DNA from: Pecten maximus
Lineage: Eukaryota
DNA: 64,000 nt
Reading direction: 5' to 3'
NCBI RefSeq assembly: GCF_902652985.1
Contig: NC_047020.1
Coordinates: forward strand, 43,586,001 to 43,650,000
Position numbers: made by a program. This document shows positions 18,001 through 21,000 of the stretch, one piece after another. Position 1 is the stretch's first letter. Each line of letters opens with the position of its first letter.

Positions 18001-21000
18001 TATAAATATAGCATATGCAACACTTGTAAAGAGCAAGACTTTTATAGAAGGTTTTGACACATACATTTGAGGTTGTAAATCTTGTTGATAATTATAAGTG
18101 ACCAACTATCTTTCTGTTCATTAGCTGTTTTGATTTGCTAACGTTATGCTGACTACAGTTTTGTGGTTGGCATACATTTTCCTAATGAATATGTTACCCT
18201 GGTAAATACTGCCTGCAATATATATACTGTTCGGCTAGAGAGATCTTCACTTCAGCTTTGTGGTAAAATAAGGCAGCGTTAGACCCTCATGGTAAAATTA
18301 GGCAGCGTTAGGCCCTCGTGGTAAAATTGGGCAGTGTTAGGTGCTCGTAGAAAAATTAGGCAGCGTCAAAGCCCTCGAGCCTAACGTCTGGACGTTTGGC
18401 TCAATGGTTAGAATGCTCGCCTACCTAGCAGGAGGTCCCGGGTTTGATTCCCGGTCCGATCACAACAATGGTGTCTTAGACAAACAGATTTGTCCGCCCC
18501 ATCTGGTCATGACTTTCCTTGCCCTATGCATGGATCCCTGTCAGAAATCACATGCGGTAGCTACCGTAAGTCCAAACGGGTATTATCTCAGAAAGATAAA
18601 AAGGACCTCAAAATTAGGATGGGGAGCTCGAGGAATGTGGAAAAATTAGGAAGCGTTAGGGCCCTCGAGTCTAACGTCCGGACTTTTGGGTCGATGGTTA
18701 AAACACTCGCCTATCAAGCGGGAGGTCCCGGGTTTGATTCCCGGTCCAGTCACAACAGCTTGATGGGTTACGTGTAAGTGTAAGGCAAGTAAGTCAGAGG
18801 TCCTGAGTTCAATCCTAAGCAGAGGCAGTATTTTATATTTAATTTATCATGCGGTCTGTTACAAATATACATATTGAAAATTTCTATTCCATGGATTTGT
18901 CGAATTGTACATTTTTTAAGTACTTATATATTAGTAATACATACTACCTGAAGTTTGCACACAAGTCACATAGGGGCATGATTTGATGGGTTGATCAAGC
19001 AATATGATCATAATGCATATAATGTTATTCAAAATTATCTTAATTTCAGCCCAATAGAATCTATACCAAACACAGAATACAGAGTAACATGTCAATGTGG
19101 AGGAAACAACATCATCCTTATAATGTAAGTACATGACTGTTAAAACTTTTACAAATTAATGCTTATAATTAATAAGTGGAGATGGTCTACACAATGTTAA
19201 ATTGACTAAGTGGTTAGATTTTGATCTTTTTCTCCAGGCATTTGCATTTATACAACTGTACCTGGAATTAGACTAGTTGTTTGAAAAAAAAAATGTAAGC
19301 ATAATTATTTCACCTGTGTAATTTCATTGTTTACACTTTTCCAATATTCACTCTTACACTTATTCTGATCAATACGAGTGTTGGGTCGTATATTAAAAAA
19401 AAAGGTTTCTTTTTTAAGTTTTGAATTTTCAGAAATTGTTTGTACTAATTTCCAAATCTCATCCTGAACAGAAAATGCATAGTTTTTACTTCCAAATGTT
19501 TTTAAATTCTTTTTATCAGTTATGAAATGGCAATCTGATCATTGAATGAATTCTCAGTACCATATTATATGTATATATATATATCTGTAGATTCTCTGAA
19601 GTTTCTTATAAAACTGTTATATTGTATACCAGAATATGTTTTCAGTCTTAACTATTATATTAATGACCAGGTAATACCTTCTATTTATACTACAGATCCC
19701 TGCCCCCACAGTTCCCACAGGACCCACCTACAGTGACCATCACTCCCCCTGTGGTTCATCCCTGGGTAGACCCAACTCAGAAGATCGTTGGCTGTCAAAA
19801 TCTTAACTCTGTAAGTAATATTTCTTCAGGACATCTGGAAACATAGCTGTTATCCGCGAGTCACCTCTTACTTAAACGTACGTCTAAACATGTAATTACA
19901 ATACAATAATGTATGCCTGTCTATGTGGACTTGTTGTGCTTTAGAATTGCACTGATTTCCTGGCCAACCTGGCATCCTGAAGAGTGAAATCAACTTACTT
20001 TTCCTTCAAAACACTACTAGTAATGAATGGCTGAAAATATTTTGATTAAATTTGATTTGGGGCCCAGTCTTATAATATAAAGATAAAATCTTGTATATTA
20101 CTAAATGTTTGTTGGTATGAGAATCTGTATTGTACATCAGACAGAAAATTATTTTTATCAACTAGGAATATTTTCTAAGATTTATTAAGAAACTTTCAAT
20201 TTGATAAATAATGACTTTCATCTTTCAGTTTTCCATGCACTCCAGTCTTGGCCATGCAATACAGTCTGTCGTGGAAGAGTTCAAGAAAAATCCACCCCAG
20301 ATACGATCACAGCCTTAGTAAGTGAACCAGAAGAAAAAATTTGGTAACATCGGTACTAAACATGAATCTTCATTAGTGGTTAACAACATGAATATTCATT
20401 ATTGTTTATTAAAATAGATTAATATCCATTTATATTTGTCAACATGAATATTCATTAATAAGCATTTAGCTATGTCATTTAATATGATATGCTTGTTTCC
20501 CTCTGACTTTAAGAAAGATAGCTACAGCCAATGATTTATCAGATGTACTCTCATTGAAATTAATTTAATTTCACAGATCTCACTGTCTTCATCTGATGAA
20601 GTGTGTATGATTGATTTTGTGCAATAAGAATTTCTAACGTTTTCCTCGAACCACCTTGGATAAAAGTTAAATGCAGTAGAAAGTTGTATCTAGGAAAACT
20701 TTTCAGATCTAGTCTAATAATAGTTAAACTACTGAACCATTTAAATAATATGGGGATCTCTACTTCATCACTAGATCTGACACTGTGGTTTTTGTTACAG
20801 TGGACCTCAACTTGGATACCCACCAGTTCCACCTCCAAACGCCCAGTTTTCTGGATTCAACCCCGGGGGGATGGCAGCAGGGTATCCGTCGCCTCCCACC
20901 CTACCTCCCTCCATTCCTGGGGGTAGCAGGGTATCACCAGTACTAGACAGTAGACGTCAGGTACAGTATACATAAAAATTAATTCCGATTCATTAATGAT

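What the first reader, a model, noticed from the sequence alone, without database searches (positions are those of the whole stretch)
18192..18863. tRNA-carrying TRIM nested in the Pol III A-box region of another tRNA-carrying LTR-like element
Seen: a ~500-bp element with two TG..CA LTRs, PBS, purine tract, a ~170-bp non-coding interior and a CAGCT(T) target duplication. Each LTR contains a tRNA-like A/B-box cassette, and LTR1 has its first ~29 bp amplified about 4 times. It sits at the TTCAGCT A-box-like position of a second tRNA-bearing TG..CA element. Established: plant Cassandra TRIMs carry 5S RNA in their LTRs, and, from memory, tRNA-carrying non-autonomous LTR elements named Ajax have been reported in molluscs. 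Yeast Ty1/Ty3 target Pol III genes. Inference: these elements may be Pol III-transcribed and may preferentially integrate into Pol III promoters, including each other's. It lies ~450 bp into intron 1 beside a bidirectional promoter.
Basis: partly seen in the sequence, partly recalled or inferred. Interest (0 to 1): 0.68.

Follow-up and report, generated by a model that had tools for sequence, protein, structure and literature searches.

The report
Old tRNA-carrying mini-retrotransposon in scallop intron
A decayed 499-bp copy of an already described kind of miniature retrotransposon (Helenus, with a tRNA-like sequence in each terminal repeat) lies in the first intron of a scallop gene, and the idea that it homed in on a second tRNA-like element is not supported.

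Summary
The inner element is real. It spans window 18259-18757 (499 bp) and has two TG..CA direct repeats: a 209-nt 5' repeat carrying a 29-bp x 3.7 tandem array, and a 122-nt 3' repeat. The repeats are 103/121 identical. Between them lies a 168-bp non-coding interior that starts A-TGG and ends in a purine-rich tract. A 4-bp duplication, GCTT, flanks the element. The only two Rfam tRNA matches in the 64-kb window lie one in each repeat.

This anatomy matches Helenus, the tRNA-carrying TRIM group described by Kojima in 2024. That paper reports 51 Helenus families in pteriomorph bivalves, lists Pecten maximus as a host, and gives 4-bp target duplications for animal Helenus.

The host is a scallop. 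Exons match named Pecten maximus proteins at 94-100%. The element sits in sense orientation in intron 1 of a VPS37A-like gene.

The outer "tRNA-bearing TG..CA element" is not above chance. Neither piece gives a tRNA-model hit, its B-box-like motif occurs at chance frequency, and TG..CA ends with a 4-bp flank repeat appear at 43% of control loci. Pol III-promoter targeting rests on this one unverified site. Verdict: a known kind, an old dead copy, low interest.

The parts
18255..18258 (+). Left copy of the 4-bp target-site duplication, GCTT
   Evidence: Direct reading. It abuts the TG of the 5' LTR.
18259..18467 (+). 5' LTR, 209 nt, TG..CA. It holds the 29-bp tandem array and tRNA-like sequence 1.
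   Evidence: Its last 121 nt are 103/121 identical to the 3' LTR.
18260..18366 (+). 29-bp minisatellite of 3.7 copies, made from the first 29 nt of the LTR
   Evidence: TRF score 151, 84% matches. Units 1-3 are 23-26/30 identical to each other. Unit 4 is closest to the start of the 3' LTR, at 24/30.
18390..18462 (+). tRNA-like sequence in the 5' LTR. The box A region includes TGGCT..TGG at 18397-18407. The box B-like motif is at 18441-18451.
   Evidence: Rfam tRNA 25.8 bits, below the gathering score of 29. B-box has 1 mismatch. ARAGORN finds no tRNA.
18468..18635 (+). Non-coding internal domain, 168 bp
   Evidence: No other copy in the window. The open frames across it have no Pfam match.
18469..18481 (+). 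Primer-binding-site candidate, starting TGG one base after the 5' LTR
   Evidence: Direct reading. The partner tRNA was not identified.
18616..18635 (+). Purine-rich tract abutting the 3' LTR (polypurine-tract candidate)
   Evidence: 16 of 20 purines, reached at 1.8% of window positions.
18636..18757 (+). 3' LTR, 122 nt, TG..CA, with a single copy of the 29-nt unit
18688..18752 (+). tRNA-like sequence in the 3' LTR. The box B-like motif is at 18731-18741.
   Evidence: Rfam tRNA 36 bits against a gathering score of 29. It is the only match above gathering in the window.
18684..18687 (+). The only run of four T inside the element, at the 5' edge of the tRNA-like part of the 3' LTR. The 5' LTR has GTTT at this position.
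   Evidence: A role as a Pol III stop is an inference.
18758..18761 (+). Right copy of the 4-bp target-site duplication, GCTT
   Evidence: Direct reading.
18192..18258 (.). Not verified as an element.
   Evidence: No tRNA hit. No likeness to the inner LTR. GC 0.40 against 0.31 in the flank.
18758..18863 (.). Not verified. It holds a 2-mismatch B-box-like 11-mer at 18806-18816 and TTTT at 18831-18834.
   Evidence: No Rfam hit at E<=10. The motif occurs at chance frequency. Fold z-score 0.90.
18204..18214 (.). Left arm of an 11-nt perfect inverted repeat across the insertion. The right arm is at 18823-18833.
   Evidence: An inverted repeat this long was seen at 25 of 2000 control loci.
17711..17817 (+). 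Coding exon 1 of the host VPS37A-like gene
   Evidence: tblastn with named Pecten maximus and Ylistrum balloti proteins. The GT donor at 17818 was read.
19050..19125 (+). Exon 2 of the host VPS37A-like gene. The start is approximate.
   Evidence: tblastn. The AG acceptor at 19048-49 was read.

Best explanation
Window 18259-18757 is one old, inactive copy of a Helenus-type TRIM. [quoted passage not shown]

Shown here: the paired LTRs, the TG..CA ends, the 4-bp flanking duplication, a TGG-initiated site next to the 5' LTR, a purine-rich tract next to the 3' LTR, an interior with no coding capacity, and the tRNA-like cassettes.

Inferred from the family as published: an RNA is made from the 5' LTR, probably by RNA polymerase III through the internal tRNA-type promoter. 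It is copied into DNA by the proteins of an autonomous Ty3/Gypsy-type partner, with a host tRNA priming at the site next to the 5' LTR and the purine tract priming the second strand. The partner's integrase inserts the copy and makes the 4-bp duplication.

After insertion into intron 1 of the scallop VPS37A-like gene, in sense orientation, the copy decayed. LTR divergence is 15%, and both B boxes read GGTTT. The first 29 nt of the 5' LTR expanded in place into a minisatellite, in a genome region full of such arrays.

The DNA it landed in cannot be shown to be a tRNA-bearing element.
For: - LTR pair: 121 nt, 85% identical, E 7e-35. The homology edges fall exactly at TG and ..AACA.
- GCTT lies on both sides. 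The chance of a 4-bp match at fixed edges is about 0.005 from the intron's composition.
- Both of the window's only tRNA-model matches lie at the same place in each LTR.
- TGG lies 1 nt after the 5' LTR, and 16/20 purines lie before the 3' LTR.
- No Pfam match in the open frames.
- The host is a scallop. The exon open frames searched are 94-97% identical to named Pecten maximus proteins, and single exons in tblastn reach 100%.
- Kojima 2024 (PMC10886601) defines Helenus as TRIMs under 1000 bp with tRNA-derived LTR sequence. The paper reports 51 families in Pteriomorphia, lists P. maximus, gives 4-bp TSDs for animal Helenus, and reports similarity to Gypsy elements at the PBS.
- Minisatellites with periods of 23-59 bp are common in the window.
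- Units 1-3 of the array group together, and unit 4 groups with the 3' LTR.
Against: - There is only one copy to look at, with no other copy in the window and no host genome at hand.
- The primer tRNA could not be identified.
- The purine tract is broken by 4 pyrimidines.
- The 5' LTR's tRNA-like part scores below Rfam's gathering score (25.8 against 29), and ARAGORN calls neither.
- Neither tRNA-like stretch folds better than shuffles (z 0.28 and 0.34).
- The duplication can also be read as CAGCTT if the LTR is taken 2 nt shorter.
- The element could not be matched to a named Helenus family, because the paper's supplements are closed and no repeat library is on hand.
- Pol III transcription is untested for any Helenus (paper's Discussion).
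Confidence: 0.85

Rival explanations
1. One reading: the TRIM is nested in box A of a second tRNA-carrying TG..CA (solo-LTR-like) element, because these elements prefer to integrate into Pol III promoters, including each other's.
For: - TG at 18192 and CA at 18863 are flanked by AATA on both sides.
- The right piece has a T-arm-like 11-mer at 18806-18816 and TTTT at 18831-34.
- The pieces have GC 0.40, against 0.27-0.31 in the flanks.
- Read by eye, the left piece ends and the right piece begins with letters that would resemble a box A across the insertion site.
Against: - No tRNA-model match in either piece at E<=10. A degenerate tRNA-like head elsewhere in the window still scores 17.8 bits.
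- B-box-like motifs with up to 2 mismatches number 176, against 209 expected.
- TG..CA with a 4-bp flank repeat appears at 432/1000 control loci.
- No likeness to the inner LTR above shuffles.
- No second copy in the window.
- A single site cannot show a preference.
- Known Pol III-targeting elements insert 2 to about 1000 bp upstream or 7 to about 450 bp downstream of tRNA genes, which leaves the internal promoter intact (PMC5911963, passages).
- Kojima 2024 has no occurrence of 'nested' or 'preference'.
Confidence: 0.06
2. The target is a small foldback or MITE-like repeat, or a solo LTR or SINE remnant without a detectable tRNA part. The TRIM landed in it by chance.
For: - An 11-nt perfect inverted repeat (18204-14 and 18823-33) brackets the insertion. 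One this long is seen at only 25/2000 control loci.
- GC is raised in both pieces.
- The P. maximus rows of Table 1 in PMC11481361 sum to about 76,600 HCD-SINE insertions, 29,870 of them in introns, so landing in a repeat is not rare (passages; the sum is mine).
Against: - The inverted repeat is not at the ends of any unit I could define and does not extend outward (read).
- It was noticed after the fact.
- No other copy in the window.
- The 6-bp direct repeat TGTTAC (18192-97 and 18857-62) is of a kind expected several times by chance in ranges this size (my estimate from the per-base match rate).
Confidence: 0.3
3. The structure is not an LTR element. It is two tRNA-derived SINEs in tandem, or a local 290-bp duplication.
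For: The two tRNA-like units lie 290 bp apart in the same orientation. Tandem SINE arrays are reported in bivalves (PMC11481361, passages).
Against: - Neither unit has a tail or its own flanking duplication.
- The repeat homology starts about 50 nt before the tRNA-like part and stops exactly at TG and CA.
- One 4-bp duplication flanks the whole.
- TGG and the purine tract sit at the positions expected of an LTR element.
Confidence: 0.04
4. It is a TRIM transcribed by RNA polymerase II like ordinary TRIMs. The tRNA-like part is only a passenger, the relic of a SINE that once inserted into an ancestral LTR.
For: - Kojima proposes a SINE insertion into a TRIM's LTR as the origin of such elements.
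- Both B boxes here read GGTTT, not GGTTC.
- A tRNA-like head elsewhere in the window (34792-34868) shares 43 invariant columns of 92 with the two LTR cassettes.
Against: - Boxes A and B are reported as conserved across Helenus families (paper section 3.5).
- The GGTTT could be decay of a CpG in each LTR after insertion. 14 of the 18 LTR differences are transitions, 4 of them of CpG type.
Confidence: 0.15

Closest known systems
Helenus (TRIMp3 with a tRNA-derived sequence in the LTRs; Kojima 2024, PMC10886601)
   Same: - Size under 1000 bp, with two LTRs, a PBS and a PPT.
- A tRNA-like cassette with boxes A and B in each LTR.
- A 4-bp target duplication, as in animal Helenus.
- The host is a pteriomorph bivalve, and Pecten maximus is in the paper's host table.
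   Different: - Nothing in kind differs.
- This copy has a 29-bp minisatellite in its 5' LTR only.
- Both B boxes read GGTTT where the paper says GGTTC is conserved.
- Box A of the 3' LTR departs from TRGCY at one base.
- Assignment to a named family could not be made, because the supplements are closed.
Ajax (Kojima 2024)
   Same: It is also a TRIM with a small-RNA-derived Pol III promoter in its LTRs.
   Different: Ajax carries a 5S rRNA fragment, makes 5-bp duplications, and is known from two nemerteans only. Here the LTR matches are to tRNA, and no 5S match appeared at E<=10.
Cassandra (plant TRIM with 5S rRNA in its LTRs; as summarised in Kojima 2024's Introduction and Discussion)
   Same: The same design: a miniature LTR element with an internal Pol III promoter in each LTR. 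Cassandra's RNA starts in the 5' LTR and ends in the 3' LTR, with a short terminal duplication.
   Different: Cassandra carries 5S rather than tRNA, lives in plants, and is 565-860 bp long. Its transcription has been validated, which has not been done for Helenus.
biv-TRIM (Sci Rep 2019, PMC6934838; passages read)
   Same: A TRIM of bivalves, with solo repeats and tandem forms.
   Different: No canonical PBS could be identified in biv-TRIM. The passages read report tRNA similarity only within its inner domain and none in its terminal repeats.
Ty3, Ty1 and the Dictyostelium tRNA-gene-targeting retrotransposons (review PMC5911963; passages read)
   Different: Those elements insert next to Pol III genes, not inside box A. 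Ty3 inserts within 1-4 nt of the start site, and the others insert up to about 1 kb upstream or 7-450 bp downstream. Their preference is shown by many insertions. Here there is one site, and it is not shown to be a Pol III gene.

Membership tests
Helenus | TRIM architecture: under 1000 bp, two LTRs, no coding capacity | tested here: met
   499 bp. LTRs of 209 and 122 nt. A 168-bp interior. No Pfam match in the open frames.
Helenus | A tRNA-derived sequence with box A and box B in the LTRs | tested here: met
   Rfam tRNA 36 bits (3' LTR) and 25.8 bits (5' LTR, below the gathering score of 29). B boxes have 1 mismatch each. ARAGORN finds none, which agrees with the paper's view that most are not functional tRNAs.
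Helenus | A PBS next to the 5' LTR, complementary to a host tRNA 3' end | tested here: inconclusive
   TGG lies one base after the LTR. No scallop tRNA set is available. The window has no tRNA gene. The paper's bivalve PBS figure is in the closed supplements. A literal search of papers for the first 12 nt found one unrelated paper.
Helenus | A polypurine tract before the 3' LTR | tested here: met
   16/20 purines, reached at 1.8% of window positions. 12/15 purines, reached at 3.5%. The tract is interrupted by 4 pyrimidines.
Helenus | 4-bp target-site duplication (animal Helenus) | tested here: met
   GCTT at 18255-58 and 18758-61. A 6-bp reading is possible if the LTR is taken 2 nt shorter.
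Helenus | Host among the reported taxa (Pteriomorphia, including Pecten maximus) | tested here: met
   Exons are 94-100% identical to named P. maximus proteins. The host table was read.
Helenus | Sequence similarity to a named Helenus family consensus | not testable with these tools
   The consensus sequences are in Repbase and in the paper's supplements, and neither is available here.
Helenus | Transcription by RNA polymerase III | not testable with these tools
   Not validated for any Helenus, according to the paper's Discussion.
Ajax | A 5S rRNA-derived promoter fragment in the LTRs | tested here: not met
   The Rfam scan of 17900-19100 at E<=10 lists tRNA and no 5S rRNA.
Pol III-targeting retrotransposon (Ty3-like behaviour) | Insertions recurrently placed at a fixed position relative to Pol III genes | tested here: inconclusive
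   Only one insertion is available. Its target gives no tRNA-model match in either piece. The pieces were not joined. No genome is at hand for a census.
Tandem tRNA-derived SINEs | Each unit has its own tail and flanking duplication, and the tRNA head sits at the 5' end of the unit | tested here: not met
   There are no tails. About 50 nt of shared leader precede the tRNA-like part. One duplication flanks the whole.

The most novel reading that the evidence does not exclude
The integrase that moves this scallop Helenus family is drawn to DNA occupied by the Pol III factors TFIIIC/TFIIIB and inserts within the internal promoter itself. Helenus copies, SINE heads and tRNA genes would then be preferred landing sites. 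That would be a form of Pol III targeting not known in animals, and it would differ in position from the yeast and amoeba cases.
Probability: 0.04. Interest if true: 0.6.

Novelty: already known. Interest (0 to 1): 0.14.

Why it matters
As it stands, it matters little. It is one decayed copy of a family type published in 2024, found in a species already listed as a host. It has three practical uses:

- It corrects the name, from Ajax to Helenus.
- It is a reminder that tRNA-model hits in bivalve introns can be LTR cassettes rather than tRNA genes or SINEs.
- It shows that an LTR can seed a minisatellite after insertion.

The targeting idea would matter if a census bore it out, because Pol III-directed integration is so far documented only in the compact genomes of yeasts and social amoebae.

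Tried and rejected
- **Other copies in the window.** I looked for other copies of the inner element, its interior and both outer pieces by BLASTN (word 7, E<=1). None were found.
- **Outer pieces.** I tested them apart against the inner LTR and against Rfam. Both tests were negative. I did not cut the TRIM out and close the ends, so box A across the junction was never scored as one string. That question stays open.
- **Folding.** The right outer piece and both tRNA-like cassettes fold no better than shuffles.
- **Primer tRNA.** There are no scallop tRNAs at hand. A literal search of papers for the first 12 nt of the PBS candidate found one unrelated paper.
- **A partial extra 29-nt unit just before the 3' LTR.** It is only 14-17 of 25 identical to the units, and BLAST did not report it. 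I rejected it as unsupported.
- **A MITE reading of the outer sequence.** The inverted repeat is uncommon (1.25% of controls) but not terminal. I keep it only as a rival.
- **Bidirectional promoter.** I found only that the two start codons lie 2.4 kb apart, head to head. No minus-strand exon was seen nearer.
- **Collections not used.**
  - Genome contigs holds bacteria and archaea only, so it was not scanned.
  - The phage, plasmid and E. coli collections were not searched because they are irrelevant to a scallop.
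Full report
**What is in the sequence**

Reading 17700-19400 and running the repeat tools gives one clear structure. A 121-nt direct repeat lies at 18347-18467 and 18637-18757. It is 85% identical, with BLAST E 7e-35 within the window. Pairwise alignment with flanks puts the edges of homology at (T)GT(A/G)GAAAAATT on the left and ..TCACAACA on the right.

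The 5' copy is lengthened by a 29-bp tandem array of 3.7 copies at 18260-18366 (84% matches, TRF score 151). The array's first unit begins with the TG at 18259.

The element therefore spans 18259-18757, 499 bp. It has a 5' LTR of 209 nt, an interior of 168 bp and a 3' LTR of 122 nt.

GCTT lies immediately outside both ends (18255-58 and 18758-61). From the intron's base composition, a 4-bp match at fixed edges has a chance of about 0.005. Because both LTRs share the last ACA, the 4-bp reading is the cleaner one.

The interior begins A-TGG. Its last 20 nt hold 16 purines, a density reached at 1.8% of window positions. The two stop-free frames that cross the element have no Pfam match at E<=1.

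**The tRNA-like cassettes**

Rfam's tRNA model matches 18688-18752 at 36 bits (gathering score 29) and 18390-18462 at 25.8 bits. In the whole window only the first reaches gathering. In a permissive scan of all 64 kb at E<=5, these two are the only tRNA matches among 39 listed.

ARAGORN calls no tRNA, and neither stretch folds better than shuffles (z 0.28 and 0.34). The anticodon-loop letters also differ between the two LTRs in the alignments. These are tRNA-derived promoter-like cassettes, not tRNA genes.

Box B reads GGTTTGATTCC in both LTRs, one mismatch to the recalled consensus.

**What it is**

A literature search led to Kojima 2024 (PMC10886601). I read its abstract, Methods, Results, Discussion and figure legends and tables, but not its supplements, which are closed. 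The paper reports the following:

- Helenus is defined as a TRIM shorter than 1000 bp with a tRNA-derived sequence in its LTRs.
- There are 51 Helenus families in five orders of pteriomorph bivalves.
- Pecten maximus is listed among the hosts.
- Animal Helenus makes 4-bp target duplications.
- Only Gypsy elements resemble animal Helenus at the PBS.

Later papers that mention Helenus add no data (passages; search). biv-TRIM (PMC6934838, passages) is a different bivalve TRIM without a canonical PBS.

**Host and context**

I searched exon open frames one at a time and did not join exons at any step.

- The VWA exon frame is 97% identical to a named P. maximus protein.
- A Mod_r exon frame is 96% identical to P. 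maximus VPS37A-like.
- A CAF1 exon frame is 94% identical to P. maximus CNOT7-like.

Nothing in the window was taken for human.

tblastn of those named proteins against the window gives these positions:

- VPS37A-like exon 1 lies at 17711 to about 17817.
- VPS37A-like exon 2 lies at about 19050-19125.
- CNOT7-like lies on the minus strand, with its first coding exon at 15293-15180.

The element therefore lies in intron 1 of the VPS37A-like gene, in sense orientation, 442 bp after the exon. The two genes are head to head with 2.4 kb between their start codons. A shared promoter is possible but was not shown.

**Age and the minisatellite**

The LTR cores differ at 18 of 121 sites: 14 transitions and 4 transversions, K2P 0.17. 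Four of the differences are of CpG-decay type. This is an old copy.

Both B boxes carry T where Kojima reports GGTTC as conserved. That could be ancestral to this copy or two separate CpG decays. Either way, this copy is unlikely to be a working Pol III unit (inference).

Units 1-3 of the 29-bp array are 23-26/30 identical to each other and 19-21/30 identical to unit 4. Unit 4 is closest to the start of the 3' LTR, at 24/30. The 3' LTR has a single unit. Stepwise expansion in place after insertion is therefore the simplest account. The window has many arrays with periods of 23-59 bp.

**The outer element**

Box A across the junction therefore remains unscored.

- Neither piece resembles the inner LTR more than shuffles do. 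Shuffles reached the observed score in 243/500 and 459/500 trials for the left piece, and in 98/500 trials against each LTR for the right piece.
- The right piece (18758-18870) has no Rfam match at all at E<=10. The left piece has three matches, none to tRNA.
- For comparison, a degenerate tRNA-like head at 34792-34868 still scores 17.8 bits.
- The right piece's B-box-like 11-mer (18806-18816) has 2 mismatches. The window holds 176 such matches against 209 expected.
- Among 165 TG/CA pairs around the insert, one has a 4-bp flank repeat, against 0.8 expected. The same search finds at least one such pair at 432 of 1000 control loci.
- The right piece does not fold better than shuffles (z 0.90).

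Some hints suggest the flanks are not plain intron:

- GC is 0.40 in both pieces, against 0.27-0.31 outside.
- TTTT lies at 18831-34.
- An 11-nt perfect inverted repeat (18204-14 and 18823-33) is of a length seen at only 25 of 2000 control loci.

These hints fit some small repeat. They do not show a tRNA-bearing LTR.

**Targeting**

One insertion cannot show a preference, and its target is unverified. In the review of Pol III targeting (PMC5911963, passages), Ty3 inserts within 1-4 nt of the start site. The other elements insert 2 to about 1000 bp upstream or 7 to about 450 bp downstream, which spares the internal promoter. An insertion inside box A is not that pattern.

Kojima's text has no occurrence of 'nested' or 'preference'. 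My search for bivalve work on Pol III-directed integration listed only yeast and amoeba studies besides the SINE and Helenus papers.

Table 1 of PMC11481361 gives P. maximus HCD-SINE insertion counts per genomic feature. These sum to about 76,600 (my sum), with 29,870 in introns (passages). Chance landings in tRNA-derived repeats must therefore occur.

**Mechanism**

Shown: the LTR-PBS-PPT-LTR anatomy, the duplication and the cassettes.

Inferred from the family and from Cassandra as summarised by Kojima: the RNA starts in the 5' LTR from the internal promoter and ends in the 3' LTR. It is reverse-transcribed and integrated by a Gypsy-type partner.

The only T4 run inside the element (18684-87) sits at the 5' edge of the 3' LTR's cassette, where the 5' LTR has GTTT. 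Whether it marks an RNA end cannot be judged from one decayed copy.

**What stayed unchecked**

- The family census, the match to named Helenus families and the primer tRNA. These need the host genome, Repbase or the closed supplements.
- Genome contigs holds only bacteria and archaea and was not used.

**Verdict**

The element is of a known kind, and interest is low.

Noticed in passing
window 34792-34868 (+), with 34873-35019, 26865-27022 and 27096-27246: A third tRNA-like head is present. It has an exact box B at 34847-57, scores 17.8 bits against Rfam tRNA, and is followed by TTTTT. It runs straight into a repeat that also occurs twice near 26.9-27.2 kb, where it adjoins a 155-bp tandem array. 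This looks like a tRNA-derived SINE whose body seeds a satellite. Its cassette shares 43 invariant columns of 92 with the two Helenus LTR cassettes.
   Followed up: partly
window 23368-24130 and 25921-26683: A 2553-bp tandem duplication at 96-99% identity includes one VPS37A-like exon. Residues 209-260 of the P. maximus protein map twice, at 23632-23787 and 26185-26340. This is either a recent exon-bearing duplication or an assembly artefact.
   Followed up: no
window 857-2236, 2645-3426, 22685-23385, 38247-39025, 41471-41742, 43010-43583, 47324-48861, 59767-61026: The window is unusually rich in minisatellite arrays, with periods of 23, 26, 34, 41, 45, 48 and 59 bp. The array at 59.8-61.0 kb is open in several frames on both strands and gives spurious Pfam matches.
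   Followed up: no
window 46629-46937 (-): A short reverse-transcriptase-like match is present: Pfam RVT_1, 21.7 bits, below the cut-off of 29.6, covering 55 residues. It sits beside 23-bp arrays and is probably a fragment of a decayed retroelement. No intact gene was seen, and its breaks were not counted.
   Followed up: no
window 55029-55217: A long hairpin-forming stretch matches many unrelated miRNA-precursor models on both strands, all far below their gathering scores. It is probably a foldback or MITE-like repeat.
   Followed up: no
window 57352-63540 (+): Exons here encode a VWA / thrombospondin type 1 / chitin-binding protein. They are 91-100% identical to a partial P. maximus protein named semaphorin-5A-like.
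   Followed up: partly
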